Of a DNA stretch of 64,000 nt, positions 34,582-54,951 are shown one piece after another. The stretch is taken from NCBI GenBank assembly GCA_963810645.1, contig CAWEOK010000016.1, positions 60,280-124,279 of the forward strand, read 5' to 3'. Each line of letters starts with the position of its first letter. The first letter of the stretch is position 1. The notes beneath the pieces were generated by a model. The model made no database searches. It worked only from the letters and a program-made list of their open reading frames with translations, and had not been told where the DNA came from. The position numbers and the translations under genes are program-made. The stretch is from an uncultured Solirubrobacterales bacterium (GTDB taxonomy: Bacteria; Actinomycetota; Thermoleophilia; Solirubrobacterales; Solirubrobacteraceae).

Positions 34582-36090
34582 TCAGAGCTGGGCGAGCTCG
34601 GCGGTGATCTCGCTCACCGCGGACTTGGCGTCGCCGAACAGCATCGAGGTCTTCGGGTCGAAGTACAGCTCGTTCTCGATGCCCGCGAACCCGGGGTTCA
34701 TCGAGCGCTTGATCACGATCACCGAACGGCTGTCGGCGACCTCGAGGATCGGCATGCCGTAGATCGGCGAGCTGGGTGTGTTCTTCGCCGCCGGGTTGGT
34801 CACGTCGTTGGCGCCGATCACAAGCGACACGTCGGTGCGGGAGAACTCGGGGTTGGCGTCGTCCATCTCCTTGAGCTGGTCATACGGAACATCGGCCTCG
34901 GCGAGCAGCACGTTCATGTGCCCGGGCATGCGCCCGGCGACCGGGTGGATCGCGTAGCTGACCTCCACCCCGCGCGCCTCGAGCTCCTTGGTCAGCTCAC
35001 GCACGGCGTGCTGGGCCTGGGCGACGGCCATGCCGTAGCCGGGGACGACGACCACGCGGCTGGCGTAGGCGAGCTGAATCGCGGCGTCGGCAGCGCCGAT
35101 CGAGCGCACCGTACCCGCGTGCTCCCCCGCCCCGCTGGCGCCCTCGACCGCCCCGCCGCCGCCAAACCCGCCGGCGACGATCGCCGGGATCGAGCGGTTC
35201 ATCGCGCTCGCCATCAGGCGGGTCAGGATCGTGCCCGACGCACCGACGATCATGCCCGCGACGATCAGCGCCGGGTTGTTGAGAGCCATGCCGGTGGCCG
35301 CCGCGGACAGGCCGGTGAAGGCGTTCAGCAGCGAGATCACGACCGGCATGTCCGCCCCGCCGATCGGCAGCACCACGGCGTTGCCGAGCAGCGCGGCGAC
35401 GATCAGCATGCCGATGAACAGCAGTTCCGAATGCGCTCCATTGACCAAGGCGACGCCCGCAGCGACGGCAAGGATCAACAGCACGAAGTTGACGATCTGC
35501 TGGGCGGAGCCGAAGGAGATAGGACGCCCAGGGATGATTTCCTGGAGCTTGCCGAACGCGATGTTCGAGCCCCAGAACGAGATCGAACCGACGATCGCGG
35601 CGAACACCGAGAATATTGCGACGTACGTCGGCACTCCCCCGATCTGGATAGATGCGCCGCTCTGCAACACGAGGCCGCTCGGGAATTCGTGGGCGAAGTT
35701 GATCGTGTGCGAACCGTAGGTCGAGCCGTGGTGGCGGAACTCGACCCATGAGATCAGCGCCACCGCGCCACCGCCGACGCCGTTGAACAGCGCGACCATC
35801 TGCGGCATCGCGGTCATCTTCACCTGGCGTGCCGCCGGCACCCCGACGGCCACGCCGAGGGCGATACCGAGCGCGATCAGGCCCCAGTTGCCCTCGCCGG
35901 GGTTCAGCAGGGTGGCGATCACCGCGATCGCCATGCCGACCGCCGCGGTGCGATTGCCGCGCACTGCGCTGGTCGGTCCAGCGAGCCCGCGCAGGCCCTG
36001 GATGAACAGGGCGAACGCGACGATGTACAGAACGTAGATGAAGCTTTCGCTCTGCAGGAACGTGCTCGCCAGCGGCAGCGCGGCGATCAT
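34582..36090 (-). CDS. pntB: NAD(P) transhydrogenase subunit beta
   Basis: Polytopic N-terminus plus the dIII domain (VPGYGMAVAQAQH...HPVAGRMPGHMNVLLAEA). Confidence 0.95.
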   Translation of the reverse strand: MIAALPLASTFLQSESFIYVLYIVAFALFIQGLRGLAGPTSAVRGNRTAAVGMAIAVIATLLNPGEGNWGLIALGIALGVAVGVPAARQVKMTAMPQMVALFNGVGGGAVALISWVEFRHHGSTYGSHTINFAHEFPSGLVLQSGASIQIGGVPTYVAIFSVFAAIVGSISFWGSNIAFGKLQEIIPGRPISFGSAQQIVNFVLLILAVAAGVALVNGAHSELLFIGMLIVAALLGNAVVLPIGGADMPVVISLLNAFTGLSAAATGMALNNPALIVAGMIVGASGTILTRLMASAMNRSIPAIVAGGFGGGGAVEGASGAGEHAGTVRSIGAADAAIQLAYASRVVVVPGYGMAVAQAQHAVRELTKELEARGVEVSYAIHPVAGRMPGHMNVLLAEADVPYDQLKEMDDANPEFSRTDVSLVIGANDVTNPAAKNTPSSPIYGMPILEVADSRSVIVIKRSMNPGFAGIENELYFDPKTSMLFGDAKSAVSEITAELAQL

Positions 36091-36491
36091 GCGGCGCCCC
36101 CCTTACCATCGCCCTCGCCGAGGTCTCCCGCACCCGGTTTGCCGCCGGCGCCACCGCCGCCTGTGCCGGCGCCCTCCCCGTCCTTCGCGGACGGCGGCTT
36201 GGGCTTTGACTTGAACATCTCGAGCATGCGATCGGTGACGAGGAACCCACCGACGATGTTGATCGTGCCGAACGCCACCGCGATCACCAGCAGCGCCTTG
36301 CTGAAAGCATCCAGACCCGCGAGCCCGAGTAGCAGCAGGCCGCCGAGCAGCACGATCCCGTGGATCGCGTTCGTCCCCGACATCAGCGGCGTGTGCAGGG
36401 TGTTCGGAACCTTCGAGATCACCACGAACCCGATGAATCCGGCGAGTACGAGGATCGCGAGGTTGGTTGTGAGCGTGCTGGCGAGGATCAT
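36087..36491 (-). CDS. pntAB: NAD(P) transhydrogenase subunit alpha, part 2 (membrane)
   Basis: LAGFIGF.VISKVP..LHTPLMSGTNAIHGIV. ATGA overlaps with both neighbours. It has a Gly/Lys-rich C-terminal tail. Confidence 0.9.
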   Translation of the reverse strand: MILASTLTTNLAILVLAGFIGFVVISKVPNTLHTPLMSGTNAIHGIVLLGGLLLLGLAGLDAFSKALLVIAVAFGTINIVGGFLVTDRMLEMFKSKPKPPSAKDGEGAGTGGGGAGGKPGAGDLGEGDGKGGAA

Positions 36492-37618
36492 ATTTGGGCC
36501 TCCACAGCGGCCTGAGCTCCGAGATGAACGATCTCACCGAGGCGCACGATGCATGAGCCGGCGACGATCTCATCGTCGAAGTCCAGGTGCAGCTGGCCGT
36601 CCTCGCCGACGAGCAACTCCAGCAGCGCGAGCACGTTGCGCGCGAACAGCTGCGAGGCGTGCTCGGGCATGAGCGCGGGCAGGTTCAACGGCGCGACGAT
36701 CTTGACGTCGTGCTTGACGACGGTCTCCCCCGGCTCGGTCAGCTCGCAGTTGCCGCCGGACTCGCCCGCCAGGTCGACGATCACCGACCCGGGCTTCATC
36801 CCTTCCACCGCCTCCGCGGTGACGAGCTTTGGCGCAGGACGTCCCGGCACGAGCGCGGTCGTTATGACGACGTCGAACCCCTTGATCGCCTCGGTCAGTG
36901 CGTACTGCTGCACCGCCCGCTCCTGCGCGGTCAGCTCGCGTGCGTACCCGCCCTCGCCGCTGGCCTCCAGGCCGAGATCGAGCCACTGCGCGCCCAGCGA
37001 CTGCACCTGCTCGGCCACCTCGGGCCGCACGTCGTAGCCGGTGGTGCGCGCGCCCAGGCGCTTGGCGGTGGCCAGCGCCTGCAATCCGGCGACGCCCGCG
37101 CCGAGCACGAGCACCTTGGCGGGCGGGATCGTGCCGGCGGCGGTCATCAGCATCGGGTAGAACCGGCCCAGGTTCTCGGCGCCGAGCAGCGCTGCCTCAT
37201 AACCGGCGACGTTCGACTGCGAGGACAGCGCATCCATCGACTGCGCGCGCGATATGCGCGGGATCGCCTCCATCGCGAATGCGGTCGCATGCGCGCCCGC
37301 CAGCGCACGTGTCGTCTGCGGGCTGGTCAGCGGCGCGAGGAAGCCCACCAGGATCGAGCCGGACCCCAGCGCCCGGATCTGCTCGGGGTCGGGCGGGGCG
37401 ATCGTGACGACGACGTCACACCCCCAGACCTCGGCGGCATTGCCGGTCAGCTCGGCGCCCGCATCGGCGAATGCGCCGTCGGGCAGCAGCGCACCGGCGC
37501 CCGCGCCACTCTGCACGAGCACCTCGATGCCTTTCGCCTTCAGCTTGCCGACCACCTCCGGCACGAGCGCGACTCGGTGCTCGCCGGGAGCGGTCTCAGT
37601 CGGAACGCCGATCCGCAT
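36488..37618 (-). CDS. pntAA: NAD(P) transhydrogenase subunit alpha, part 1 (dI)
   Basis: MRIGVPTETAPGEHRVALVPE and VLGAGVAGLQA (Rossmann fold). Confidence 0.95.
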   Translation of the reverse strand: MRIGVPTETAPGEHRVALVPEVVGKLKAKGIEVLVQSGAGAGALLPDGAFADAGAELTGNAAEVWGCDVVVTIAPPDPEQIRALGSGSILVGFLAPLTSPQTTRALAGAHATAFAMEAIPRISRAQSMDALSSQSNVAGYEAALLGAENLGRFYPMLMTAAGTIPPAKVLVLGAGVAGLQALATAKRLGARTTGYDVRPEVAEQVQSLGAQWLDLGLEASGEGGYARELTAQERAVQQYALTEAIKGFDVVITTALVPGRPAPKLVTAEAVEGMKPGSVIVDLAGESGGNCELTEPGETVVKHDVKIVAPLNLPALMPEHASQLFARNVLALLELLVGEDGQLHLDFDDEIVAGSCIVRLGEIVHLGAQAAVEAQI

Positions 37619-37704: not shown

Positions 37705-38427
37705 ATGACGGTGAATCTGACCCGCATCTACACCAAGCTCGGCGACGGCGGCGAGACCCATCTGGGAGACATGAGCCGCGTCTCCAAGCTGCACCCCCGC
37801 GTCGAGGCCTACGGGACGGTCGACGAGCTGAACGCGACGCTCGGGGTGGCGCTGACCCAGCCGGGACTGCCGGACCGGATCGCGGCGTGGCTCACACGCG
37901 TGCAGAACGACCTGCTCGACCTCGGCGCCGACCTGTCGGTCCCGGGCGCGGTCGAGGCGGAGGCGAAGGCGAAGGATGGGTCACGGCGGGAGGATGAGAT
38001 CGGGGATGGGGATGGCGATGAGGACGGGGATGAGGACGGTGACGGGGACGGCAAGCAAGCGGCCGACAGGCATCAGCGCCCACGGCTGCGTGTGACCGCC
38101 CAGTACACCGAGTGGTTGGAGGGGGCCTGTGACGAGGTCAACGCGACGCTTGCGCCACTGCGCTCGTTCGTGATCCCCGGGGGCACGGCCGCCGCCGCGC
38201 AACTGCACGTCTGCCGCACCGTCTGCCGCCGGGCGGAGCGACGCGCGATCGCCCTCGGCGCGGAGGGCAACCCGGAGGTCGTGCGCTACCTGAACAGGTT
38301 GTCGGATCTGCTGTTCATCCTCGCGCGCGCGGTGAACAAAGACGGGGTGGTGGGATCCGAATCGGGGTCCGAGCCACTATGGGATCCGGGAGCCCACGGC
38401 TCGGGCTCCGCTTCCCAGCCCACGTGA
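37705..38427 (+). CDS. pduO: PduO-type ATP:cob(I)alamin adenosyltransferase, with an acidic Gly/Asp/Glu insertion
   Basis: From the ATG at 37705 the product reads MTVNLTRIYTKLGDGGETHL...RVEAYGTVDELNA...FVIPGG...LHVCRTVCRRAERR. Confidence 0.9.
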   Translation: MTVNLTRIYTKLGDGGETHLGDMSRVSKLHPRVEAYGTVDELNATLGVALTQPGLPDRIAAWLTRVQNDLLDLGADLSVPGAVEAEAKAKDGSRREDEIGDGDGDEDGDEDGDGDGKQAADRHQRPRLRVTAQYTEWLEGACDEVNATLAPLRSFVIPGGTAAAAQLHVCRTVCRRAERRAIALGAEGNPEVVRYLNRLSDLLFILARAVNKDGVVGSESGSEPLWDPGAHGSGSASQPT

Positions 38428-39105
38428 GCGCGAGCGTGCCTCGCCGGCACGCAGACCGGCCACGGCCAGGGCCATCCACAGCGTGCCCACCAAGTAGCCG
38501 CCTACGACATCGCTCGGCAGATGCCAGGCGAGGATCAGCAGCGAGAAGCTGACGGCCGCCACGAACAGCACACCCAGGGCGGCTGCTGCCGGACGCAGGC
38601 GGTTTGGCGCGACCAGCACGGCGCACATGACGAGCGCGGTCGCCGCCGTCGAATGGCCGCTCGGCCAAGACGCGGCGTTGACCCAGCTGCCACCCCCGAC
38701 GTAAGCGTGTGGATGCGCGAGCAGTGGCTTGAGGATCTCGCTCGTCAGCGGCGCCAGGCCCAGTACGAGCCCGACGGCCAGCGCGACCTTGGGACGTCCG
38801 CGCCTGAGCGCGACCGCCATCAGGATGGTCCCCCAGAGGATGTAGAGCACCGGGTCGAGCAGGTGCAGCAATGCGTTCGCCACGTCGTCCAGTCGCGGCC
38901 CGCCGAGCAGCGTGAAGTCGTACAGCGCGACCGCGTCTTTGACGTGCGTCGCGGGCACAAACGCGGCCACGATCCAGGTCAGCGCGAGCGCGAGCGCGCA
39001 CAGCCCGGCGACCCACAGGGGCCCGGCGGCGGTTGGCCGGCCGTAATCTCCGCGTCGCGTGTGCGGGTGGGCGGCCGATAGATACACCGTTGACATGCTC
39101 TCCAC
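38377..39105 (-). CDS. PAP2-family (type 2 phosphatidic acid / undecaprenyl-diphosphate) phosphatase
   Basis: Six hydrophobic segments and SWPSGHSTAATALV (PSGH motif). Its 3' end overlaps pduO by about 50 nt (convergent). Confidence 0.8.
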   Translation of the reverse strand: MESMSTVYLSAAHPHTRRGDYGRPTAAGPLWVAGLCALALALTWIVAAFVPATHVKDAVALYDFTLLGGPRLDDVANALLHLLDPVLYILWGTILMAVALRRGRPKVALAVGLVLGLAPLTSEILKPLLAHPHAYVGGGSWVNAASWPSGHSTAATALVMCAVLVAPNRLRPAAAALGVLFVAAVSFSLLILAWHLPSDVVGGYLVGTLWMALAVAGLRAGEARSRSRGLGSGARAVGSRIP

Positions 39106-39202: not shown

Positions 39203-40822
39203 CTACGGCCCAACTGGGAAAGTCCTGCCCGCGAGCGCGATCAGCGCCTGCGCGGTCACCCAGACGGGGGTCTGGGAGCCGGTGCGCGAGTAGCGGATGC
39301 TGCCGCCGGGCGCGATCAGGCTTTCCAGGTAGCCGACCGGGGAGCGGCTGCCGTGGCGGCGGATCGTGTGAGGGTTATATCCGGCGGCGATCAGGCCCTG
39401 GATCGCCCAGGCGGTTGACTGGGCGTTGGATTCGCCGCCGTACTGCTGGGGCAGGCCGCCGTCGAGGTTCTGGGAGCGGATCAGGTAGTCGGCCCCGGCA
39501 TCCAGGACGTGCTTGTTGCGAGCGCCGGCGTCGGCGAGCGCCTGCAGCGCCGTGCCGGTGTCATCGACGTCGCTGGGCGAGCCGTGCACGTCGAAGGAAA
39601 AGCCACCGTCGGAGCTCTGCTGGCGCTCGATCCAGCCCGCTGCTTCGCGGATCGGGCCGAAGGCCGGTGAATGCCCGACCGCACGCAGCGCGAAGATCGC
39701 GAACGCCGTGAGATCGACCATGTTCTGAAACGAGCCATCGCGTTCACGCGCGCGCAGTACTTCGGCGACGAGGTTGCGCCCGGCGAACGAGTACGCGCTT
39801 GCTCCGCAGGTGTGCGCGGCGAGGATCGTGCGCTCGGTATCGCCGAGACCCTGCAGCGTCGAGACTTCGCCGCGCAACGCGTCGAGTACCGAGTGCCCAT
39901 CGTGGGTGACGCTCGCCGGGTCGTGCCCGGCGGCCGCCAGGCCCATCGCGGCCCAGGCGGAATACAGCTCGCTGGGGCTCTGGCCGGCGGCGGCGCCATA
40001 TCCGCCGTTGGAGCTCTGGACCGAGAGCAGATATGAGACCTCGGGCGACAGGGACGCAGCGTGGGCGCGGGCGATCGATGCTCGTGCCGCCGGAATGCTC
40101 CGGCCCAGCGATAACCCACCCAGCACGAGCGCGAGGACCACCAATGCCACGGTCATCCCTCGTGCCGCCGGCGGGTGGCCCGTGGATAGGTCCGGCATGG
40201 CAGGCGTGTCCGGGACAGGTTCCCACTGAACGGTCATGCGCTCGCGGGTGCGGGCCAGCAGGCGCGCGAGCTCGGGTCCGAAGGCGAGCGCGAACAGCAG
40301 TGTCGCAACCGTGTCTGTGACGTCGAACGGCAGCGCCGCGCCCGCGTATGCGATGAACGCCGCGGGAGTATGGCTGGCGCCGATCGTCCAGGTGTAGAGG
40401 TTCATGATCTCCTTGGCCATCAGCGCCGCGGCGGCGCAGGCGATCGCCAGCGGCACTCGTGGCAGACGCCGGCCACTGACCCGCCCGAGCGTCGCTCCCG
40501 CGAGACCGACGAGACCCCAGGCGGCCATCTGCCAGGGGGTGTACGGGCCCTGACCGAGCATGATGTTCGACGCGAGCATGCCGATCGCGCCGACGGTGAA
40601 CCCGGGCAGCGGGCCGAGGGCGTAGCCGACGACGAACGCGATCGCGGTGATCGGCTTGACGTCGGGCAGTGCCACGAACGCGTCACGACCAAGCGCGGCG
40701 ACGGCCGCCAGTGTCGCCACCACGGCGACCATGCGCGCGGAGGGACGCCGGCGCTCGTATGCGATCCAGCCGGCGGCCAGGACCAGCCCGACAAGCAGAA
40801 ACGAGGCCGGCAGCCAGCTCAC
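39203..40822 (-). CDS. fusion protein: ECF-transporter S-component-like membrane domain, one extra TM, and an extracytoplasmic prenyltransferase/squalene-cyclase-repeat (alpha/alpha toroid) domain
   Basis: The N-terminal 200 aa or so hold about six hydrophobic helices. The C-terminal half carries repeated QxxxGG(F/Y/L) motifs (VQSSNGGYG, RERDGSF, RQQSSDGGFSF, RSQNLDGGLP). The GTG start makes a GTGA overlap with the ecfA stop. Confidence 0.7.
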   Translation of the reverse strand: MSWLPASFLLVGLVLAAGWIAYERRRPSARMVAVVATLAAVAALGRDAFVALPDVKPITAIAFVVGYALGPLPGFTVGAIGMLASNIMLGQGPYTPWQMAAWGLVGLAGATLGRVSGRRLPRVPLAIACAAAALMAKEIMNLYTWTIGASHTPAAFIAYAGAALPFDVTDTVATLLFALAFGPELARLLARTRERMTVQWEPVPDTPAMPDLSTGHPPAARGMTVALVVLALVLGGLSLGRSIPAARASIARAHAASLSPEVSYLLSVQSSNGGYGAAAGQSPSELYSAWAAMGLAAAGHDPASVTHDGHSVLDALRGEVSTLQGLGDTERTILAAHTCGASAYSFAGRNLVAEVLRARERDGSFQNMVDLTAFAIFALRAVGHSPAFGPIREAAGWIERQQSSDGGFSFDVHGSPSDVDDTGTALQALADAGARNKHVLDAGADYLIRSQNLDGGLPQQYGGESNAQSTAWAIQGLIAAGYNPHTIRRHGSRSPVGYLESLIAPGGSIRYSRTGSQTPVWVTAQALIALAGRTFPVGP

Positions 40823-42444
40823 GCGACGGCCCTCAATGCGATGTCTGACTGCAGCAGCGCGGCGCCCTGCTCGGGCAGCAGCGCCCCACCTGCGCCGCCG
40901 AGGATGCGGGCGGTCTCGGTGGCGAAATACCAGCCTCCGGCGAGCAGTTCTGTTGCATCCCCGTCGGCGATCACGCGGCCGTCGGCGAGCAGAACCGCGC
41001 GCTGCGCGCAGGATGCGGCGAACTCGGGGTCGTGCGTGGCCACGATCACCGCCAGTCCCCGCTCGGCGCGGCGGCGCAGCTCCAGCGCCAGCTCGGCCTT
41101 GGCCTCGCGGTCCATGCCCCGCGTCGGCTCATCCAGCGCGAGCACCGCCGGTGGGCCGTCCGGCGAATCGGCTCCGTCGCCCGCGACGATCGCCAGCGCC
41201 AGTCGTTGACGCTCGCCTCCGGACAGGTCGCGCGGGTTGCGCTGGGCCATGTGCGCCAGCCCGACGGACTGCAACGCCTCCGCAGAGGTCTCCTCGCAGA
41301 CCTGCTCGTGCACGAAGTAGTCGCCCGGGTTCTGCAGTAGCAGCGCGACCCGGCCGGCGCGCTCGATCCGCCCGCGTGTCGGTTCCAGCAGACCGGCGGC
41401 GTGACGCAGGAGCGTGGACTTACCTGCGCCGTTACGGCCCATCAGCGCGACGGTCTCACCGGGATGCAGGGTCAGCTCGACGCCACGCAGGATCGCCGGA
41501 CCGTCGCGCAACTCGTGCCAAACGCCGCGCACTTGCAACGCCGTGGCGGGCTTGCGCGAACGCCGCTTACGTGGCACAGCCGCAGCGGCCTCGGGCACAT
41601 CGTCACGATCCTTGGGCAGCAGTCCGCGCGCCCGTAACGCGGCGCGGGCCTGGCGCACGCCGACGGGCAGCGGTTGCAGGCCGGCGAGCGCGAACAGCTT
41701 CGATCCGGGCGTCTGCAGGGCGGGCGATTCGCGCGCTGCCCAGGCGAGGAACGACGCGGGATCGCCGTCGTGCGCGATGCGTCCACCGCGCATGGCGATC
41801 ACACGATCCGCCGCCGACAGGCAGCGCTCCAGGCGATGCTCGGCCAGCAGGATCGTCGTCTCCCACTCCTGATTCAGCCGGCGCAGCAGCCCTATCAGCT
41901 CATCACCGGCGACCGGGTCCAGCTGCGAGGTCGGCTCGTCGAGCAGCACCACCGGGGGCCTGCCCGCGAGCGCAGCGCCGAGCGCGACACGCTGCTGCTC
42001 GCCGCCGGAGAGCTCGTGCACCGAGCGGTCGAGCAGCGCGTCGATCCCCAGCGCGAGCGCGACCTCCTCCACCCCGCGCGCGACCGCGCCGGAGCCGTGG
42101 CCGCGGCTCTCCAGCGACAGCGACAGCTCCGAGCGCACCGAGCTCGTCACGAGCTGCGTCTCGGGGTCCTGGAACAGAGCGCCCGCGACTGCACCCAGCT
42201 GCGCGGGTCCGTGCTCGCGCGTATCCATGCCGGCCAGCGTGACCGTTCCGGCGTAGCGCCCGCCGTGGAAGTGCGGCACCAGTCCACAGGCGGCCCGCAG
42301 CAGCGTCGACTTACCGTGACCGGACAGGCCCGCGAGCAGGCACAGCTCGCCGGGCTCGATCTCGAAGCTGACATCGTCGAGCGCCGGCTGCTCGGCGCCG
42401 GGGTAGTGGTAGGTGACGCGGTCGAACGCCAGGATCGGGGTCAT
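40819..42444 (-). CDS. ecfA: ECF transporter ATPase, tandem fusion of two ABC domains (EcfA1-EcfA2-like)
   Basis: Two Walker A motifs (GLSGHGKST, GRNGAGKST), two signature motifs (LSGGEQQR, LSGGERQR) and two Walker B motifs (LLDEPT, ALDEPT). The ATG at 42442-42444 makes an ATGA overlap with ecfT. Confidence 0.9.
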   Translation of the reverse strand: MTPILAFDRVTYHYPGAEQPALDDVSFEIEPGELCLLAGLSGHGKSTLLRAACGLVPHFHGGRYAGTVTLAGMDTREHGPAQLGAVAGALFQDPETQLVTSSVRSELSLSLESRGHGSGAVARGVEEVALALGIDALLDRSVHELSGGEQQRVALGAALAGRPPVVLLDEPTSQLDPVAGDELIGLLRRLNQEWETTILLAEHRLERCLSAADRVIAMRGGRIAHDGDPASFLAWAARESPALQTPGSKLFALAGLQPLPVGVRQARAALRARGLLPKDRDDVPEAAAAVPRKRRSRKPATALQVRGVWHELRDGPAILRGVELTLHPGETVALMGRNGAGKSTLLRHAAGLLEPTRGRIERAGRVALLLQNPGDYFVHEQVCEETSAEALQSVGLAHMAQRNPRDLSGGERQRLALAIVAGDGADSPDGPPAVLALDEPTRGMDREAKAELALELRRRAERGLAVIVATHDPEFAASCAQRAVLLADGRVIADGDATELLAGGWYFATETARILGGAGGALLPEQGAALLQSDIALRAVA

Positions 42445-43349
42445 GGGTCGATACCTCGACGGTCTGCGAACGGCAGCAGGATGGCCGCAATCAGCGCGGC
42501 GCACAGCACGAGCGTTGCGATGCTCGTCGGCATGTGGATGAGAGGGTACGCCTGAAATGCAGCCGCTTCGGTCAACCGGCCGAGCACGGTGAGCGCGACG
42601 ATCGCGATGGCCGAGCATGCGAACGCGATGTCGTGACGCGACCATGGGCGCACGGCACGAGGGGTGCGCGGGGAGCCAGATCTAGCAGCGGCGAAGCCGC
42701 GCAGCTCGAGTGTGGCCGCCACGTCCATGGCGCGGTCGAGCGAGCCGCCGATGACGGCGCCGAGCAGTGCTACGCGCGCGCGGGCACCGGTGGGAGCGCC
42801 ACCTGGGCGCGTGTGTTGAGCCTCGGCCAGGCGCCCGGAGTCGGCGGCCAGTAGGGGAATCATGCGGGTCGCCAGCGAGGCGGTCAGCGCCGAGCGATAG
42901 GACAGCCGGCGCACCGCGCGCAGCAGCTCGTCGGGGTCGACCGCGAGGCTTGCAAGCGTCGTGACGAGGATCAGCAGCGTGACCTTCAGCCCGATGACCG
43001 CCCCATAGACGAGCGCCTCGACGGTGAGATCGCCCTGGCCCAACGGACCGAGATCGCCGAGCCGCGCGAACACGGTCAGGCCGTCGCGCGAGACGAGCAC
43101 GTTGATCGCGACGATCGGCACGGCCACGATCGCGGCGGTACGCAGGGTGCGCCTCAGCTGATGGCCAAGTCCGGCGGCCACCCCCGCGCCGAGCACAGCC
43201 AGCGTCAGCGCGAGCAGGACCAGCGGATGGAACAGCACGAGCACGGCCACGGTGAGCGCGAGTGCCCATGTGGCAGCGACACCGGCGCGCGCGGCGTGCA
43301 GGGGACTTGGGAGGCGGCGGTAAAAGAACGACGAACGTCCGCCCAGCAT
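42441..43349 (-). CDS. ecfT: ECF transporter transmembrane (T) component, CbiQ/EcfT family
   Basis: From the ATG at 43347-43349 the product is polytopic, with Arg-containing coupling helices (RSALTASLATR...LELRGF). Confidence 0.85.
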   Translation of the reverse strand: MLGGRSSFFYRRLPSPLHAARAGVAATWALALTVAVLVLFHPLVLLALTLAVLGAGVAAGLGHQLRRTLRTAAIVAVPIVAINVLVSRDGLTVFARLGDLGPLGQGDLTVEALVYGAVIGLKVTLLILVTTLASLAVDPDELLRAVRRLSYRSALTASLATRMIPLLAADSGRLAEAQHTRPGGAPTGARARVALLGAVIGGSLDRAMDVAATLELRGFAAARSGSPRTPRAVRPWSRHDIAFACSAIAIVALTVLGRLTEAAAFQAYPLIHMPTSIATLVLCAALIAAILLPFADRRGIDP

Positions 43350-43353
43350 GCGC

Positions 43354-44334
43354 TCACCCTCCCGCGGATACGGGTGCCGGGAGCGACAGCAGCTCACCCC
43401 CGGGGGTGATCGCCAGCGCGAAGCGGTTGTGCAGGGCCACTTCGTCGAACGCGTGCGCCGCCAGTTCCACGCCCGCTTCATCGGTGCCCGTGACGACCCA
43501 GACGGGGTCTTCTTCGCCGCTGCGCGTGGCCGCGATCAGTCCCGCTCCCGCGCCGAGCGTACGGGCGATCGAGCCCTGTTCGTTCAGCACCGTCAGCGTT
43601 GACCCGTTCGCCGCCATGCGCGCATACACGCCGCTGGAGCCCGGTCCGGACTCGATCTCATGCACGGTCGGATCGCCGCTCACCGCGGTCCACGGTCCGA
43701 CCATCAGACGCAACGTTTCCGGCTCATTGCCGGGGCTGATCGCGGCGAGCGGGGCAAGCACACCGAGCTTCTGCAGGCGCGACTCGACCGTCGTGCACGG
43801 ACCGTTCGTCACCGAGGCGCATTCGACGCGCAGCGGCAACCGTTTGCCGTCGATCCCATTCGCGAACGGATCGGGAAACGACCCCACGACTGCGGGCACG
43901 CTGTCGGTCTGGCTCCAGTCGTGCAGATCCCACCAGATGTGATCGCCGGCATGCACGTTCGTCTCGGCCGCGCCCTTGGGCGCCTCGATGCCGTTGACGA
44001 AGTAGAACCAGTCCTGCGGCTGTCCGCCTGCCGATCCGCCGGAGAGCCCGTCGATGCTCTGCACGAACCCGCCGCCGTACTTGGTCGTTACGGTCGCGTT
44101 GCGCATCAGCAGGCTCATGACCGTTTCTTCGCCGCGTACCTTTGGCGCGCTCTCAGAGCGCACGACCTGGGCGCCGAAGTCGCGGGTCACGGTCAACTTG
44201 ACCGCAGTCGGCGCCGAGCCGGCGCCCAGGCCGCAGCCGGCGCTCGTGGCGGCCATGAGGACCGCCACGAGCACAGCCACGCCGAGCGCCCGGCGACGGA
44301 CAACGCATCGGAGCCGCTCGGCCCTAGGAGACAT
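43354..44334 (-). CDS. lipoprotein with an N-terminal DUF4430 (transcobalamin C-terminal-like) domain
   Basis: Lipobox (LMAATSAGC), then KLTVTRDFG...ETVMSLL...TTKYGGGFVQSIDGL...DWFYFVNG...GDHIWWD, which is the DUF4430 pattern as I recall it. Confidence 0.7.
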   Translation of the reverse strand: MSPRAERLRCVVRRRALGVAVLVAVLMAATSAGCGLGAGSAPTAVKLTVTRDFGAQVVRSESAPKVRGEETVMSLLMRNATVTTKYGGGFVQSIDGLSGGSAGGQPQDWFYFVNGIEAPKGAAETNVHAGDHIWWDLHDWSQTDSVPAVVGSFPDPFANGIDGKRLPLRVECASVTNGPCTTVESRLQKLGVLAPLAAISPGNEPETLRLMVGPWTAVSGDPTVHEIESGPGSSGVYARMAANGSTLTVLNEQGSIARTLGAGAGLIAATRSGEEDPVWVVTGTDEAGVELAAHAFDEVALHNRFALAITPGGELLSLPAPVSAGG

Positions 44335-44339: not shown

Positions 44340-45512
44340 CTAGCGGACATAGAACACGATCCTCGACGTTCCACGGGCCGGCGTCGTGTAGTTGCCGGCG
44401 GCGTCGGTCGCCGCGATGTCAAGCACATACCGGCCGGGAGGTAGCGATTCGGGCAGCAGGTATGAGAACTGACCGCTGCTCGACACCTTGAACGTGCTGC
44501 CCGTACCGCAGCGCGCTCGCACGAACCGGGTAGTGACGCCGTCGAATGCGTAGCAGCGACCTCGGTACTCGCGGCGCAGTTCAAGGCCGATCGAGGTGAC
44601 GTTGGTGTGCGCGAGCACCGTTCCCGAGAGCACCCGTGGGGCGTGGCCACGCTTGTAGGTGTGTCCGTCGATCAGGCTGGTCAGCCTCGGCACGAGCGCG
44701 TACTCGCCTTTGTAGGAGGGGACGACTGTCGTGCTGCCCGTGGATGTGGAGGCGGCCGACGAGCTGGTCGAGGTCCGGGTGCCGCACGTGCCGTCGTTGC
44801 CGTTGTGCACACAGATGTTGGCCTCGGTGCGAATTGAAGGGGACACGCTGGACGAGCCGGTCACATGCAGCGAATATTCACCGGGCGCTCCGAACGTCAG
44901 CGTGGCATGGCCACCTGCATCGGTCGTAGCGCTCACACCGCCGCCTGCAACAGTGGCGCCGACTGCCGGCGAGGCTTCTCCCTTGGAGTTGTACTGCTTG
45001 ACAATCACGTTGACCGCTTCGCCGATGTTGGCCGCCGTTGGCACTTCGACGCCAAGAGGATTAGGGCATTCTGTCGCTGTTTCAGAGCAGGGGGAAAACA
45101 GCACTTCTTGACCGGCTTCCGGTTCGGCTTCGCATGCTCCTACTTCCGACGCCGCGTGATTGACCCAGAGCTCCCAGTAGTAGCCACTACCAAAAGCGTG
45201 TTCCTCTCCCTCGATTGCATAGACCTCGTACTGACTGTATGAGGCATCCCAAGGACCGCCCCAATTGCCGCTGGTGGCGAGTTGCAGCGCACCGAGAGCA
45301 CTGGTCCCGGCACAGGAGTCTGCTGGTGTGCCGTCCTTGACAACGGGTTCCGTTGTTGTGGTCACCTGTGTCGCTGGGAGCAGGGTTTCGTTTAGACCCT
45401 CAACCCTGACGGTGACGGACGCTGGTCCGGCAGCCAAAGCTGTTGATGCAGACACGAATATCCCAAGACACGCGATGCCCAGCGCCAACGAGATACGACG
45501 AGATAGAACCAT
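44340..45512 (-). CDS. secreted multidomain protein: DUF4430-like domain, Ig-like/CarboxypepD_reg-like beta domains and a Ser/Thr linker
   Basis: The ATG at 45510-45512 has a GGAAAGGGG RBS. Signal peptide MVLSRRISLALGIACLGIFVSASTALA, then VTVRVEG.NETLL...GTSALGALQ...YYWELWVNH...GQEVLF. The 438-aa maximal ORF start falls inside the riboswitch. Confidence 0.65.
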   Translation of the reverse strand: MVLSRRISLALGIACLGIFVSASTALAAGPASVTVRVEGLNETLLPATQVTTTTEPVVKDGTPADSCAGTSALGALQLATSGNWGGPWDASYSQYEVYAIEGEEHAFGSGYYWELWVNHAASEVGACEAEPEAGQEVLFSPCSETATECPNPLGVEVPTAANIGEAVNVIVKQYNSKGEASPAVGATVAGGGVSATTDAGGHATLTFGAPGEYSLHVTGSSSVSPSIRTEANICVHNGNDGTCGTRTSTSSSAASTSTGSTTVVPSYKGEYALVPRLTSLIDGHTYKRGHAPRVLSGTVLAHTNVTSIGLELRREYRGRCYAFDGVTTRFVRARCGTGSTFKVSSSGQFSYLLPESLPPGRYVLDIAATDAAGNYTTPARGTSRIVFYVR

Positions 45513-45550
45513 TGAGCCAACCCCTTTCCACGAGGGCCTAGTGGGCTTGT

Positions 45551-45715
45551 GGTCGGAGGCAGGTCTCCTGGCTCCCGGGCCTACCCCTCCGCGCCTTCCC
45601 GATCGCCGTACGCGGATCGGTGGCTGCGCGCCTGATCGACACGCCGCGGTGGGCATCCCCGGTCACAGTGGCGGGTCCGCGCCGGATTCTCACCGGCTTC
45701 CCTACACCACCGACC
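45551..45715 (-). promoter_or_regulatory. cobalamin (B12) riboswitch
   Basis: The minus strand reads GGTCGGTGGTGTAGGGAAGCCGGTGAGAATCCGGCGCGGACCCGCCACTGTGACCGGGG...GGGAAGGCGCGG...GAGCCAGGAGACCTGCCTCCGACC. This contains the conserved core and a perfect B12 box (AGCCAGGAGACCTGCC at 45573-45558). GGTCGG and CCGACC can close P1. It ends 39 nt before the operon's first ATG. Confidence 0.88.
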
Positions 45716-45825
45716 GTATGAACGTCGCGTATCGTACTCGACCCGGCGGTGGGTGTGCAGTGTCGGGTTGGTTTTGGGGGATGCTTCGCCGATTCCGCTC
45801 GCTACGTCAGTACACCGCGCCCCGT

Positions 45826-47085
45826 CTAGGATTGTTCGCCGGGCAGTTCCCCAGCTACATCTCCCAGTGCGACACGCTGGTCGTAGTCGAGCACAGGCCG
45901 TTCCTTCAGCAACCGGCGGGCGATATCGAGGTCGTCTGGGCGCCCGAACGTCAGCGCCGCCACGACCCGCCCGTCCTTGAGATACCAGTTCGTGAACTCG
46001 CCGTCCCGCATCGACCCGCGCACGATCTCCTCGTCCCACTCATTCGCCGGCCCGACGTATTCGAGCTCGCCCAGACCGGCCAGCACCGAGTAGAAATACG
46101 GGACCACCTCGTGCGCCACATCGCGCCCGAGCATGTTCAGCGCCGCCGTCTTGCCGTGGTTGAACGCCACATCCCAATGCTCGATCCGCAGCGACCGGCC
46201 GTGCAGCACCGACTCGTACTCGCACACATCCCCGGCGGCGAACACACCCGGCACGGAGCTCTCCAGCCGCGCCGAGCACGCGATCCCACCGCTCTCGCCG
46301 ATCGTCAACCCCGCCCGCTGGGCGAGCTGGACATCCGGCGTCACGCCCGCGCCGATCACGACCGCGTCCGTATCCAGCTCCAGCCCGCCGCGCGTCACGA
46401 CTCTGCCGACACGCCCGTCCGCGCCCTCGAACCGCTCGAGCTCATCCTCGCCGTAGACCGTCACACCCGCGCCTTCGAGCAGGCCCTGGATGTATCGCCC
46501 GACGCGCTCCCCGAACCCGCGTTCCAGCGTGGCGTGCTCCTGCATCACGATCGTGCAGCGCTTGCCGATCGCGGTCAGGGACGCGGCGACCTCGCAGCCG
46601 ATGTACGACCCGCCGATCAGCACGACCTCCTCGGCATCGGCCACCCCCGCCCGGATCGAGTCGGCGTTGCCGAGCGTACGCAGATAATAGATCCCCTCCA
46701 GATCGCACCCCTCGACGTTCAGCCGCCGCACGTTCGCCCCCGTCGCGATCAGCGCCTTCCCGAACTCGACCTCCTCTTTGCTCGACAGCTTGGCCGTACG
46801 CGCGTCGAGGTCAAGCCCGGCCACGCTCGTGCGGGTCAGCAGCTCGATGTCCTGCTCCCCCCACCACTCCTGCGGCCTGAACAGCGGCTCCTCGCGAGTC
46901 TCCTCCCCGCGCAGATACCCCTTCGAACACTCCGGCCGGTTGTACGGCGCGTCTTGCTCGCGCCCGACGAGCAGCACCTCGCCCTCGGCGCCCTCCTCGC
47001 GCAGCCAGCGCGCGCAGTTACCGCTCGCCAGTCCCCCACCGATCAGCAGATACTCGACCTTGCGCGCCGCCGTCACACCGTCCAC
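45826..47085 (-). CDS. FAD/NAD(P)-dependent oxidoreductase, ferredoxin-reductase / AIF-like (pyridine nucleotide-disulfide oxidoreductase fold)
   Basis: YLLIGGGLASG, VVLIGGSYIGCEVA and FAAGDV motifs. The likely GTG start is at 47085 or 47076; the 461-aa maximal ORF adds an implausible N-terminus. Confidence 0.85.
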   Translation of the reverse strand: MDGVTAARKVEYLLIGGGLASGNCARWLREEGAEGEVLLVGREQDAPYNRPECSKGYLRGEETREEPLFRPQEWWGEQDIELLTRTSVAGLDLDARTAKLSSKEEVEFGKALIATGANVRRLNVEGCDLEGIYYLRTLGNADSIRAGVADAEEVVLIGGSYIGCEVAASLTAIGKRCTIVMQEHATLERGFGERVGRYIQGLLEGAGVTVYGEDELERFEGADGRVGRVVTRGGLELDTDAVVIGAGVTPDVQLAQRAGLTIGESGGIACSARLESSVPGVFAAGDVCEYESVLHGRSLRIEHWDVAFNHGKTAALNMLGRDVAHEVVPYFYSVLAGLGELEYVGPANEWDEEIVRGSMRDGEFTNWYLKDGRVVAALTFGRPDDLDIARRLLKERPVLDYDQRVALGDVAGELPGEQS

Positions 47086-51243: not shown

Positions 51244-51245
51244 CG

Positions 51246-54355: not shown

Positions 54356-54401
54356 GATCGACCTCCCGTCTCCGAGGCTCGGATCCTCACCTGCGGCACT
54401 C

Positions 54402-54907: not shown

Positions 54908-54951
54908 GCGGGTTCCTTTCTGGTTGTGGTGATGTCAGGAGTCGGGTCCAG

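What the first reader, a model, noticed from the sequence alone, without database searches (positions are those of the whole stretch)
39203..40822. ECF S-component fused through an extra TM helix to an extracellular terpenoid-cyclase-like toroid
ECF S-components are normally small (about 20 kDa) stand-alone integral membrane proteins that bind substrate within the membrane plane. Here about six N-terminal helices (MSWLPASFLLVGLVL...ATLLFALAFGPELARLL) are followed by a linker. A further hydrophobic helix (VALVVLALVLGGLSLG) comes next. Then there are about 300 residues with at least four QxxxGG-type repeats characteristic of alpha/alpha toroids. An S-component with a large external domain would be an unusual architecture for this transporter class.
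Basis: partly seen in the sequence, partly recalled or inferred. Interest (0 to 1): 0.7.

Follow-up and report, generated by a model that had tools for sequence, protein, structure and literature searches.

The report
B12 importer subunit with tethered capture domain
This gene fuses the membrane subunit of a vitamin B12 importer to an outward-facing ring-shaped domain that probably helps catch scarce B12, a new arrangement of parts whose cooperation in bacteria was already predicted.

Summary
The 539-aa ORF at 39203-40822 (-) is real and is a true fusion. Thousands of full-length relatives exist, and at least 80 reference genomes of Thermoleophilia carry it. Its N-terminal half is a CbrT-type ECF S-component. 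A profile of it hits only the vitamin-B12 S-component CbrT (6FNP) among all PDB sequences (E 1e-24). An extra N-terminal helix precedes this core. A variable linker follows, always containing one hydrophobic helix. The C-terminal 283 residues form a confidently modelled alpha/alpha toroid of the terpene-cyclase/prenyltransferase superfamily. The gene is the last of a tightly coupled five-gene operon: cobalamin riboswitch, two exported DUF4430 (transcobalamin-beta-like) proteins, EcfT, EcfA-A', then the fusion. Riboswitch and gene order are conserved in 65 of 65 loci long enough to judge, and a PduO adenosyltransferase is usually adjacent. Best reading: a B12-repressed corrinoid ECF importer whose S-component carries an outward-facing toroid, which works with the DUF4430 proteins like a split transcobalamin. 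The system as a whole was predicted in 2007 (Burroughs et al.), and a fully split version was described in L. sakei. Only the attachment of the toroid to the S-component appears undescribed, so this is a new variant of a known kind. Binding, topology and hand-off are inferred, not shown.

The parts
45541..45726 (-). Cobalamin riboswitch aptamer (RF00174) heading the operon
   Evidence: Rfam: 85.4 bits against a gathering score of 31.5, E 1.3e-19, full-length model match. An equivalent riboswitch lies on the same strand upstream in 65 of 65 related loci with enough upstream sequence, and in two loci at 38-39% identity.
44340..45512 (-). Gene 1: secreted protein (390 aa) with a weak DUF4430/SLBB match and Ig-like C-terminal domains
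   Evidence: The likely true start is the ATG at 45512, preceded by GAAAGGGG about 15 nt after the aptamer. The N-terminus MVLSRRISLALGIACLGIFVSASTALA looks like a signal peptide. Pfam: DUF4430 E 4e-4 (below cut-off) and Big_13 E 8e-5. It is the least conserved operon gene (27-71% identity) and lies in a lower-GC stretch.
43354..44334 (-). Gene 2: DUF4430 (transcobalamin-beta-like SLBB) lipoprotein, 326 aa
   Evidence: Pfam DUF4430 E 1.2e-13, 51.7 bits against a cut-off of 23.8. The lipobox cysteine is nearly invariant (L-A-G-C in most orthologues). Present in all 65 full loci.
42441..43349 (-). Gene 3: EcfT (CbiQ family) transmembrane coupling subunit
   Evidence: Pfam CbiQ E 1.6e-15. The likely start is the ATG at 43349 after GGGAGGG, in the 4-nt gap after the stop codon of gene 2.
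40819..42444 (-). Gene 4: fused EcfA-EcfA' double ABC ATPase
   Evidence: Two ABC_tran domains, E 3.4e-48. The best NCBIfam models are ECF_ATPase_1 and ECF_ATPase_2. The start ATG at 42444 overlaps the EcfT stop as ATGA.
39203..40822 (-). Gene 5: the S-component-toroid fusion (539 aa), the finding itself
   Evidence: The GTG start overlaps the EcfA-A' stop as GTGA. Full-length homologues.
40760..40816 (-). TM0: extra N-terminal helix (aa 3-21), absent from CbrT
   Evidence: Hydropathy 1.94. It is followed by the conserved YERRRPSAR (2-4 K/R in all 24 divergent fusions) and retained in all of them. The CbrT alignment begins only at aa 26.
40232..40747 (-). CbrT-type S-component core (aa 26-197)
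   Evidence: The family profile hits only 6fnp_A (CbrT) among 177,635 PDB sequences: E 1.2e-24, aa 26-197 against 6-176 of 182. Pairwise identity is 27%. 6FNP is ECF-CbrT, a B12 transporter (PMC5997447).
40103..40159 (-). TM7: tether helix (aa 222-240) inside a hypervariable linker (aa 198-256)
   Evidence: Hydropathy 2.2-2.5. The linker sequence and length vary (29-74 aa), but a hydrophobic 17-mer is always present.
39206..40054 (-). Alpha/alpha toroid domain (aa 257-539), predicted to be extracellular
   Evidence: AF2 pLDDT is about 85-94 over this domain. Best Foldseek hits are class II terpene cyclases (8pak, E 2e-6), with rat transcobalamin 8ixu at E 1.8e-3. Profile against SHC: E 6e-38.
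39557..39571 (-). D418-V-D420-D421-T422 motif in the toroid
   Evidence: It aligns with the catalytic D374-V-D376-D377-T of SHC and with the D303 site of SsDMS. D420 is invariant and T422 nearly so. D421 is variable across the family.
38377..39105 (-). PAP2-family membrane phosphatase, a possible accessory gene
   Evidence: Pfam PAP2 E 3.2e-13. It lies 97 nt downstream, with no terminator-like site between. It is directly downstream on the same strand in 28 of 65 loci and is fused to the toroid protein in P0121.
37705..38427 (+). PduO-type ATP:cob(I)alamin adenosyltransferase (convergent neighbour)
   Evidence: Pfam Cob_adeno_trans E 2.8e-58; TIGR00636 E 5e-51. A PduO homologue lies within the locus in 56 of 65 related loci: 30 downstream and 26 divergent upstream of the riboswitch.

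Best explanation
The gene encodes the substrate-specific (S) subunit of a dedicated ECF-type ABC importer for cobalamin and related corrinoids. The importer is switched off by a cobalamin riboswitch when B12 is plentiful.

Architecture and topology (inferred):
- The S-subunit is a CbrT-family six-helix core with one extra helix in front (TM0).
- After the core comes a flexible cytoplasmic linker, one more transmembrane helix (TM7), and a 283-residue alpha/alpha toroid.
- Inferred path of the chain: N-terminus outside, TM0, core with both ends inside, TM7, toroid outside.

Proposed mechanism (all steps inferred):
1. On the outer face of the membrane the toroid acts as the counterpart of the alpha domain of transcobalamin.
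2. The two exported DUF4430/SLBB proteins encoded first in the operon, one secreted and one a lipoprotein, act as the counterpart of the beta domain.
3. Together they sandwich a corrinoid and pass it to the membrane-embedded pocket of the attached S-core.
4. The S-core docks on EcfT and EcfA-A', topples, and releases the vitamin inside.
5. The neighbouring PduO enzyme adenosylates it.
6. The long, variable linkers on both sides of TM7 would let the S-core topple while the toroid stays outside.

Shown here: homology of each part, the riboswitch, tight gene coupling, and conservation of fusion and synteny.

Not shown: topology, ligand binding by the toroid, cooperation with the DUF4430 proteins, and hand-off.
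For: 1. S-domain identity. A profile of 17 divergent S-domains hits a single PDB sequence, CbrT of ECF-CbrT (6fnp_A), at E 1.2e-24 almost end to end. No other vitamin S-component appears even at E<=10. CbrT binds and ECF-CbrT transports cobalamin and cobinamide (PMC5997447).

2. Regulation. A full-length cobalamin riboswitch (85 bits) heads the operon. It was found in 6 of 6 divergent loci by Rfam, in 65 of 65 loci with enough upstream sequence by nhmmer, and in 2 of 2 loci at 38-39% identity.

3. Operon. The order riboswitch, DUF4430, DUF4430, EcfT, EcfA-A', fusion is conserved in 65 of 65 loci. Junctions in the window are ATGA and GTGA overlaps or 4-5 nt gaps.

4. Salvage context. PduO adenosyltransferase lies within the locus in 56 of 65 loci. 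CbrT in L. delbrueckii also sits next to pduO.

5. Partners. Gene 2 is a Pfam DUF4430 member (E 1.2e-13) with a conserved lipobox. DUF4430 is the C-terminal domain of TCN proteins (PMC4350170). [quoted passage not shown]

6. Toroid. It is confidently modelled and transcobalamin is among the significant fold matches (8ixu, E 1.8e-3). The family-invariant residues are mostly polar: D420, N466, Q468, S469, plus Y511, W521 and T372.

7. Outside location.
- K/R-rich TM0-TM1 loop and K/R-rich end of the S-core in all 24 divergent fusions.
- Stand-alone homologues have signal- or anchor-like N-termini.
- Long homologues end in a disordered region, a TM helix and an Arg-rich tail.

8. Split versions occupy the same operon slots. 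An anchored toroid follows EcfA-A' with a 4-nt overlap (L084), and a toroid directly follows a DUF4430 gene (L083).

9. Independent literature reached the same system logic for other bacteria: PMC1796856 and bioRxiv 10.1101/864751.
Against: - By sequence the toroid is a terpene-cyclase/prenyltransferase relative (SHC E 6e-38). It is not detectably a transcobalamin alpha-domain relative: no TC, IF or haptocorrin among the 60 best PDB sequence matches listed (85 matched at E<=10), and Pfam Cobalamin_bind matches 1 of 21 members at E 0.079. In the fold search transcobalamin ranks only 38th.
- The toroid keeps the DxDD-type motif, and its middle Asp is invariant. That leaves room for catalysis rather than pure binding.
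- I could not confirm the DUF4430-transcobalamin link independently. The AF2 model of gene 2 is poor over the DUF4430 region (pLDDT 33-48), Foldseek gave nothing significant, and its profile finds no TC chain in the PDB.
- CbrT alone already binds B12 at nanomolar affinity, so the accessory module is not obviously required.
- The only experimental paper on a split homologue argues for heme as substrate.
- No topology predictor or experiment was available. The membrane part of the model has only moderate confidence.
Confidence: 0.7

Rival explanations
1. Same B12 importer, but the toroid does not touch the vitamin. It is a membrane-proximal docking platform or scaffold. It recruits the DUF4430/SLBB proteins, which do all the binding, to the S-component, or it holds the complex in the cell envelope.
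For: The toroid is not detectably related by sequence to the transcobalamin alpha domain. Two DUF4430 paralogues are encoded, and one carries Ig-like domains typical of surface proteins. Burroughs et al. suggested that extracellular SLBB proteins form surface complexes.
Against: In transcobalamin the toroid cavity supplies much of the B12 contact. The family-invariant residues of this toroid are the polar residues preceding successive helices of the repeats: D420, Q468, N466, S469, W521, T372. That pattern looks like one ligand site rather than a protein-docking surface, but this is inference, because model coordinates could not be inspected.
Confidence: 0.13
2. The system imports a different tetrapyrrole or B12-related compound, for example heme as claimed for L. 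sakei Lsa1836-1840, or only incomplete corrinoids or lower-ligand precursors. The riboswitch then only couples its expression to B12 status.
For: The L. sakei study reports heme-uptake phenotypes for the split homologue. Reviewers of the 2007 paper cautioned that SLBB ligands may be diverse. A phosphatase gene (PAP2 here, His_Phos_1 in L086) is recurrently linked, which could point to phosphorylated precursors.
Against: The riboswitch is universal in this lineage (65/65). The S-domain matches only CbrT, which transports cobalamin and cobinamide. PduO is adjacent in most loci. No heme-related gene was seen in the operon. Cobinamide uptake would still fall within the main explanation.
Confidence: 0.08
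3. The toroid is an extracellular enzyme. It uses the invariant Asp of its DxDD-like motif for acid catalysis, as class II terpene cyclases do. It would act on an isoprenoid lipid of the envelope (compare the adjacent PAP2) or modify the corrinoid before uptake.
For: D418-V-D420-D421-T aligns with the catalytic motif of SHC and SsDMS, and D420 is invariant. The top fold matches include single-toroid-sized class II cyclases such as 8pak, 8paj and MstE (342-352-residue chains). PAP2 enzymes commonly act on polyprenyl diphosphates (established knowledge), and PAP2 is fused to the toroid protein in P0121.
Against: The third Asp of DxDD is replaced by E, L, S, T, I or V in relatives. An acid/polar-x-Thr element recurs before the helices of several repeats (E285, D370, D420, Q468, W521), so part of the motif is structural. 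No invariant Cys or His exists for a prenyltransferase Zn site. An isoprenoid enzyme under a B12 riboswitch, covalently tied to a CbrT-type subunit, has no evident rationale. PAP2 linkage is limited to one subclade (28/65).
Confidence: 0.05
4. Artefact: two adjacent genes (S-component and anchored toroid) joined by a sequencing or assembly error in this window.
For: Split versions do exist elsewhere. Some database relatives are visibly frameshifted (P0144, P0156, P0173).
Against: The same uninterrupted reading frame occurs in thousands of independent assemblies, including complete chromosomes and a cultured strain, Conexibacter arvalis DSM 23288. The linker keeps frame although its length varies.
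Confidence: 0.01

Closest known systems
ECF-CbrT of Lactobacillus delbrueckii (PDB 6FNP; Santos et al. 2018, PMC5997447)
   Same: The S-core is homologous to CbrT: the only PDB hit, E 1.2e-24, 27% identity. It works with EcfT and EcfA/A'. It is genomically linked to a PduO adenosyltransferase. It shares motifs such as P-[DN]-V-[KQ]-P-x-T and S-N-x-x-L-G-x-G-x-[WY]-T.
   Different: CbrT is a stand-alone 182-aa protein that shares a general ECF module with seven other S-components (group II). Here the S-core has an extra N-terminal helix, a C-terminal tether helix and a 283-aa external toroid. It has its own dedicated EcfT/EcfA-A' in the same riboswitch-controlled operon (group I-like), plus two exported DUF4430 proteins.
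Bacterial extracellular SLBB (transcobalamin-C-terminal-like) plus alpha/alpha-toroid proteins in CbiO/CbiQ operons (Burroughs, Balaji, Iyer, Aravind 2007, PMC1796856)
   Same: The same set of parts and the same predicted role: secreted or surface SLBB protein(s), often a second paralogue, an alpha/alpha toroid, and CbiO-like and CbiQ-like genes, predicted to scavenge B12 or its precursors.
   Different: In the passages read, the toroid is fused N- or C-terminally to the SLBB domain in one secreted protein. Here the toroid is separate from the SLBB proteins and is fused through a transmembrane helix to the transporter's S-component. The cobalamin riboswitch and the CbrT identity of the membrane subunit are shown here; neither 'riboswitch' nor 'ABC transporter' occurs in that paper's text.
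Lactobacillus sakei Lsa1836-1840 ECF-like system (bioRxiv 10.1101/864751)
   Same: ECF-S, EcfA-A' and EcfT, plus one secreted transcobalamin-beta-like protein and one secreted toroid protein (alpha-like, geranylgeranyltransferase-like by HHpred), all in a single operon.
   Different: In L. sakei all five parts are separate proteins and the authors assign heme as substrate. Here the toroid is covalently tethered to the S-component, there are two beta-like proteins, and a conserved cobalamin riboswitch points to corrinoids.
Animal transcobalamin / intrinsic factor / haptocorrin
   Same: An alpha/alpha toroid and a DUF4430/SLBB beta-grasp domain. In the animal proteins these sandwich one cobalamin. 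Rat transcobalamin is a significant fold match to the toroid (E 1.8e-3).
   Different: The animal proteins are single soluble polypeptides. Here the two halves are on different polypeptides and one is tethered to a transporter. The toroid is much closer in sequence to terpene cyclases than to the Cobalamin_bind family. Animal carriers release B12 only after proteolysis.
Class II terpene cyclases (squalene-hopene cyclase, SsDMS, MstE) and prenyltransferase beta subunits
   Same: Clear sequence and fold homology of the toroid. The DxDD-type motif is aligned, with the middle Asp invariant.
   Different: A single toroid, predicted to be outside the cell. The third Asp is not conserved, there are no Zn ligands, and the domain is embedded in a B12 uptake operon rather than an isoprenoid pathway.

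Membership tests
ECF transporter S-component, CbrT (cobalamin) family | Six-helix S-component core homologous to CbrT | tested here: met
   Profile A3 against the PDB: the only hit is 6fnp_A, E 1.2e-24, aa 26-197 against 6-176 of 182. Pairwise BLASTP: 27% identity, E 2e-8. The single sequence is below the Pfam cut-offs for ECF_trnsprt and ECF-ribofla_trS, but several relatives pass.
ECF transporter S-component, CbrT (cobalamin) family | Works with an EcfT and EcfA/EcfA' energising module | tested here: met
   EcfT (CbiQ, E 1.6e-15) and a fused EcfA-A' lie immediately upstream with overlapping stop and start codons. This is conserved in 65 of 65 loci. Physical interaction was not tested.
ECF transporter S-component, CbrT (cobalamin) family | Genomic or regulatory link to B12 metabolism | tested here: met
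   Cobalamin riboswitch at 85 bits, present in 65 of 65 loci. PduO lies within the locus in 56 of 65 loci.
ECF transporter S-component, CbrT (cobalamin) family | Small (~20 kDa) stand-alone integral membrane protein with no soluble domain | tested here: not met
   The protein is 539 aa, with an extra N-terminal helix, a tether helix and a 283-aa toroid. This is the respect in which it departs from the family.
ECF transporter S-component, CbrT (cobalamin) family | High-affinity binding and ATP-dependent uptake of cobalamin or cobinamide | not testable with these tools
   This needs binding and transport assays such as those in PMC5997447.
Bacterial SLBB/toroid B12-scavenging operons (Burroughs et al. 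2007) | Exported transcobalamin-like SLBB (DUF4430) protein, often with a second paralogue | tested here: met
   Gene 2: DUF4430 E 1.2e-13 with a lipobox. Gene 1: signal peptide and a weak DUF4430 match, E 4e-4.
Bacterial SLBB/toroid B12-scavenging operons (Burroughs et al. 2007) | Alpha/alpha toroid domain associated with the SLBB protein, and CbiO/CbiQ-like genes in the operon | tested here: met
   All are in one operon. However, the toroid is fused to the S-component and not to the SLBB domain.
Transcobalamin / intrinsic factor family (Pfam Cobalamin_bind + DUF4430) | N-terminal alpha6/alpha6 toroid homologous to Cobalamin_bind (PF01122) | tested here: inconclusive
   Fold level: rat TC 8ixu, E 1.8e-3, TM(target) 0.43, rank 38. 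Sequence level: PF01122 matches 1 of 21 members at E 0.079, and no TC chain is among the 60 best PDB profile matches listed.
Transcobalamin / intrinsic factor family (Pfam Cobalamin_bind + DUF4430) | Toroid and beta (DUF4430) domain in one soluble polypeptide | tested here: not met
   The toroid and the DUF4430 domains are on separate gene products.
Class II terpene cyclase (SHC-type) | Alpha/alpha toroid with QW/PFTB-type repeats | tested here: met
   Pfam SQHop_cyclase_C E 2.5e-10. Profile against SHC: E 6e-38. Foldseek 8pak: E 2e-6.
Class II terpene cyclase (SHC-type) | Catalytic DxDD motif | tested here: inconclusive
   The window protein has D418-V-D420-D421, aligned to SHC D374-V-D376-D377 and to SsDMS D303. 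D420 is invariant, but D421 is E, L, S, T, I or V in relatives.
Class II terpene cyclase (SHC-type) | Beta-gamma didomain (or equivalent) located where isoprenoid substrates are made, within an isoprenoid pathway context | tested here: not met
   There is a single toroid of 283 aa, predicted to be outside the cell. The operon holds only B12-uptake genes. Single-toroid-sized cyclases of ~345-350 residues are among the fold matches (MstE, 8pak), so didomain absence alone is not decisive.
Protein prenyltransferase beta subunit | Zn2+ site formed by Asp/Cys/His, and a partner alpha subunit | tested here: not met
   No invariant or nearly invariant Cys or His occurs in the toroid across 21 divergent members. 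No alpha-subunit gene is in the neighbourhood.

The most novel reading that the evidence does not exclude
The tethered toroid and the separate DUF4430/SLBB proteins form a split transcobalamin whose opening is mechanically coupled to the transport cycle. When the S-core docks and topples in the membrane under ATP control, the tether pulls the toroid away from the SLBB partner. That pries open an otherwise near-irreversible B12 sandwich and drops the vitamin into the S-core pocket. It would be a transporter-driven solution to the release problem that animal carriers solve by proteolysis. It would also be the first ECF transporter with an obligatory, covalently attached extracellular receptor.
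Probability: 0.15. Interest if true: 0.8.

Novelty: new variant of a known kind. Interest (0 to 1): 0.5.

Why it matters
ECF transporters are usually defined by the absence of extracytoplasmic binding proteins: the membrane-embedded S-component is the sole receptor. Here a whole class of soil Actinomycetota (Thermoleophilia) builds a B12 ECF importer whose S-component is welded to an external toroid and accompanied by two exported transcobalamin-beta-like proteins.

Why this would matter if confirmed:
- It shows that ECF systems can use a receptor relay, as other ABC importers do.
- The universal cobalamin riboswitch gives clean evidence that such toroid/SLBB modules serve corrinoid uptake. 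That bears on the disputed heme assignment in L. sakei.
- It offers a natural split version of transcobalamin for studying how B12 is captured at very low concentration and then released.
- It raises a mechanistic question: how does a toppling S-component cope with a tethered 30-kDa domain?
- It fits the earlier proposal that animal B12 carriers descend from Gram-positive bacterial capture proteins.

The practical value is modest: better annotation (these genes are currently named 'prenyltransferase/squalene oxidase repeat protein') and a candidate marker for B12 scavenging in soil metagenomes.

Tried and rejected
- Structure of the DUF4430 lipoprotein (gene 2). The AF2 model was poor over the DUF4430 region (pLDDT 33-48). 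Its Foldseek search gave only non-significant hits to glycosidase and BcsB accessory domains. It says nothing about a transcobalamin-beta fold.
- Sequence link from the DUF4430 proteins to solved TC, IF or haptocorrin chains. Single sequences and a 19-member profile found none.
Its best Pfam hit was DUF4430, but only at E 0.018, and hhalign was not significant. I treat this as a lead only.
- Sequence link from the toroid to Cobalamin_bind. Essentially absent.
- Rodionov et al. 2009 (PMC2612444), the original CbrT prediction, is not held in the library.
- A literature search for SCO2321-SCO2325 found nothing relevant. The toroid scores 92.9 bits against NCBIfam 'SCO2321 family membrane protein' (cut-off 300), so it is related but not a member.
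- Context of stand-alone toroid homologues. Their contigs are short (1-5 kb), so only partial neighbourhoods were recovered.
- Taxonomy of the most divergent fusions. Cluster look-up gave few names, and all of those were Solirubrobacterales or Actinomycetes.
- Long-form homologues. My first idea, that the 740-830 aa forms carry a C-terminal DUF4430 domain (which would complete a transcobalamin), was wrong. The extensions are either PAP2 (P0121) or a disordered region plus a TM anchor.
- No terminator-like or promoter-like site was found between the fusion gene and PAP2. Whether PAP2 is co-transcribed stays open.
- Model coordinates could not be inspected. The idea that the invariant residues cluster at one mouth of the toroid remains an inference from the repeat architecture.


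Full report
**1. The observation**

The ORF at 39203-40822 on the minus strand exists as described: 539 aa with a GTG start. Hydropathy analysis and an AlphaFold2 model give the following layout:
- a helix at aa 3-21 (TM0);
- a helical bundle from about aa 27 to 195;
- a low-confidence linker at aa 196-256 containing one strongly hydrophobic helix (aa 222-240, TM7);
- a confidently modelled all-helical domain at aa 257-539 (pLDDT about 85-94).

There are seven, because TM0 precedes the six-helix core.

The strict motif QxxxGG occurs three times (aa 269, 402, 451), where shuffled sequence gives 0.2 on average and P(>=3) = 0.0014. Two degenerate copies bring the repeat count to five. Pfam matches SQHop_cyclase_C (E 2.5e-10) and Prenyltrans (E 4.4e-08) above their cut-offs. 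The S-component models match only below cut-off for this single sequence.

**2. It is a real fusion**

- A search of 5.8 billion proteins gave 3751 relatives at E<=1e-5. The top 120 were full length at 70-100% identity, and different sources name them either 'ECF S component' or 'prenyltransferase repeat protein'.
- An exhaustive search of cluster representatives found full-length fusions down to about 38% identity.
- A scan of one genome per species found 593 stretches encoding a relative. The best 80 are all Thermoleophilia or unclassified Actinomycetota, and include complete MAG chromosomes and the cultured Conexibacter arvalis DSM 23288.
- In alignments both domains are strongly conserved. 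The linker varies in sequence and in length (29-74 aa) but always contains a hydrophobic 17-mer.

This excludes a sequencing join.

**3. Identity of the membrane half**

A profile of 17 divergent N-terminal halves was searched against all 177,635 distinct PDB sequences. It hit exactly one, chain A of 6FNP (E 1.2e-24), aligning aa 26-197 with residues 6-176 of that 182-residue chain. Pairwise identity is 27%.

6FNP is ECF-CbrT of Lactobacillus delbrueckii. It transports cobalamin and cobinamide, and its S-component CbrT binds them at nanomolar affinity (PMC5997447). No other vitamin S-component appeared even at E<=10. TM0 has no counterpart in CbrT.

**4. Identity of the soluble half**

A profile of 21 divergent toroids gave the following:
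- squalene-hopene cyclase at E 6e-38;
- the sesquiterpene cyclase SsDMS at about 1e-36;
- prenyltransferase beta subunits at about 6e-9;
- thioester (TED) domains more weakly.

Foldseek ranks single-toroid-sized class II cyclases first (8pak/8paj, E 2e-6). Rat transcobalamin (8ixu) appears at E 1.8e-3, rank 38.

Transcobalamin is not detectable by sequence. Pfam Cobalamin_bind matched 1 of 21 members at E 0.079. The resemblance to the transcobalamin alpha domain is therefore at fold level only.

**5. Catalytic residues**

The window protein has D418-V-D420-D421-T422. In the profile alignments this motif lines up with the catalytic D374-V-D376-D377-T of squalene-hopene cyclase and with the mutated D303 of SsDMS.
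- D420 is invariant and T422 nearly so across the family.
- D421 is E, L, S, T, I or V in relatives.
- An acid/polar-x-Thr element recurs before the helices of several repeats (E285, D370, D420, Q468, W521), so part of the motif is structural.
- No Cys or His is conserved, so a prenyltransferase Zn site is absent.

The conserved residues are mostly polar, which suits a hydrogen-bond-rich ligand better than an isoprenoid. That is an inference.

**6. Context**

The gene is the last of a tightly packed minus-strand operon:

| Element | Coordinates | Notes |
|---|---|---|
| Cobalamin riboswitch | 45541-45726 | 85.4 bits, E 1.3e-19, full-length match |
| Gene 1 | 44340-45512 | Start preceded by GAAAGGGG about 15 nt after the aptamer; signal peptide; weak DUF4430 match; Ig-like domains |
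| Gene 2 | 43354-44334 | DUF4430 E 1.2e-13; nearly invariant lipobox cysteine |
| EcfT | 42441-43349 | CbiQ family |
| EcfA-A' | 40819-42444 | Start overlaps the EcfT stop (ATGA) |
| Fusion | 39203-40822 | Start overlaps the EcfA-A' stop (GTGA) |

A PAP2 phosphatase gene follows, and a PduO-type cob(I)alamin adenosyltransferase converges on it.

**7. Conservation of the context**

- Rfam found the riboswitch on the same strand 4.3-5.5 kb upstream in 6 of 6 divergent loci.
- An nhmmer model built from those sequences, combined with tblastn of the window's proteins, gave the order riboswitch, DUF4430, EcfT, EcfA-A', fusion in 65 of 65 loci with at least 6.3 kb upstream.
- PduO lay within the locus in 56 of these 65.
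- Two further loci at 38-39% identity (L085, L086) show the same operon and riboswitch.
- Split versions occupy the same slots. An anchored stand-alone toroid overlaps the stop of EcfA-A' in L084. A stand-alone toroid directly follows a DUF4430 gene in L083.

**8. Topology**

No predictor or experiment was available, so topology is inferred from four observations:
- The loop after TM0 (YERRRPSAR) and the end of the S-core are K/R-rich in all 24 divergent fusions. This places them in the cytoplasm and sends TM7 outward.
- Stand-alone toroid homologues start with signal- or anchor-like segments.
- Long homologues continue after the toroid with a Pro/Gly/Ala-rich disordered region, a TM helix and an Arg-rich tail. 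This is coherent only if the toroid is outside.
- The partner DUF4430 proteins are exported.

**9. Mechanism proposed**

When B12 is scarce the riboswitch allows expression. The toroid, tethered to the S-core, and the two DUF4430/SLBB proteins capture a corrinoid on the outer face of the membrane, in the manner of the alpha and beta domains of transcobalamin. The ligand passes to the CbrT-type pocket. The S-core docks on EcfT and EcfA-A', topples and releases it inside, and PduO adenosylates it. The variable linkers on either side of TM7 would permit toppling.

Shown: homologies, riboswitch, coupling, synteny. Inferred: everything about binding and hand-off.

I put 0.7 on this overall. I put about 0.9 on the narrower statement that this is a B12-regulated CbrT-type corrinoid importer with an extracellular accessory domain.

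**10. What is already known**

- Burroughs et al. (2007) described bacterial secreted transcobalamin-like SLBB proteins. They noted that these are commonly fused to an alpha/alpha toroid, often accompanied by a second SLBB paralogue, and encoded with CbiO-like and CbiQ-like genes. They predicted B12 scavenging and a bacterial origin for animal transcobalamin (PMC1796856).
- The L. sakei preprint described a five-gene operon with ECF-S, EcfA-A', EcfT and separate secreted beta-like and alpha-like proteins, but argued for heme (10.1101/864751).
- PMC4350170 states that DUF4430 is the C-terminal domain of TCN proteins.
- Searches for the fusion itself found nothing.

The system is therefore a known kind. 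New here are the covalent attachment of the toroid to the S-component through an added helix, the extra TM0, and the universal riboswitch in this lineage.

**11. Verdict**

The finding is a new variant of a known kind, of moderate interest (0.5). It cuts against the textbook statement that ECF transporters lack external receptors and poses a clear mechanistic question. The underlying logic, however, was predicted in 2007, and the function remains untested.

Noticed in passing
window 38377-39105 (-); P0121; L086 11190-11810: A phosphatase gene is recurrently attached to this operon. PAP2 lies directly downstream in 28 of 65 loci and is fused to the C-terminus of the toroid protein in P0121 (816 aa). 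In the divergent locus L086 the same slot holds a His_Phos_1 protein, the Pfam family that I recall includes CobC. This might mean that phosphorylated corrinoids or lower-ligand precursors are processed, or it might link the system to polyprenyl-phosphate chemistry.
   Followed up: partly
window 37705-38427 (+): The PduO-type adenosyltransferase carries an Asp/Gly/Glu-rich insert (DGDGDEDGDEDGDGDG...) that splits its Pfam match into two stretches. Its 3' end overlaps the 3' end of the convergent PAP2 gene by about 50 nt. The listed ORF start (37471) is probably too far upstream; MTVNLTRIYTK at 37705 looks like the real start.
   Followed up: no
window 44340-45512 (-) and about 44500-46000: The first operon gene (secreted DUF4430/Ig-like protein) lies in a stretch of lower G+C (0.62 against about 0.70). 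It is by far the least conserved gene of the operon across loci: 27-71% identity, against 55-85% for EcfA. This suggests faster evolution or replacement of the outermost capture protein.
   Followed up: partly
window about 47216-56166 (-): A block of conjugative-element-like genes lies just upstream of the operon: an SLT lytic transglycosylase (47216-48481), an AAA_10 ATPase of the VirB4/TraG type (51246-53855) and a TcpC-like protein (54952-56166). This may be an integrated conjugative element.
   Followed up: no
P0137, P0139, P0142 (homologues, 743-766 aa): Many distant fusions continue after the toroid with a 150-200 aa Pro/Gly/Ala-rich disordered region, a C-terminal TM helix and an Arg-rich tail. 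In these proteins the toroid is anchored to the membrane at both ends. The window protein lacks this extension.
   Followed up: partly
window 40760-40816 (-), aa 3-21 of the fusion: An extra N-terminal transmembrane helix (TM0) with invariant W3, E23 and P27 precedes the CbrT-like core in all fusions examined, and CbrT lacks it. Its role is unknown; it might pair with the tether helix TM7.
   Followed up: partly
window 34582-37618 (-); L083 1518-1898: Three ORFs next to the B12 locus (376, 134 and 502 aa) look from their sequences like a proton-translocating transhydrogenase (PntAA/PntAB/PntB-like); I did not scan them against any family library. In L083 an ORF with a similar N-terminus (MRIGVPKET...) directly follows a stand-alone toroid gene, so this neighbourhood may be partly conserved.
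   Followed up: no
P0144, P0156, P0173 (database homologues): Several cluster representatives of the fusion show Arg/Pro-rich out-of-frame stretches typical of frameshift errors in GC-rich assemblies. They were excluded from the profiles, and similar errors may inflate the apparent number of 'split' or truncated forms in metagenome catalogues.
   Followed up: yes
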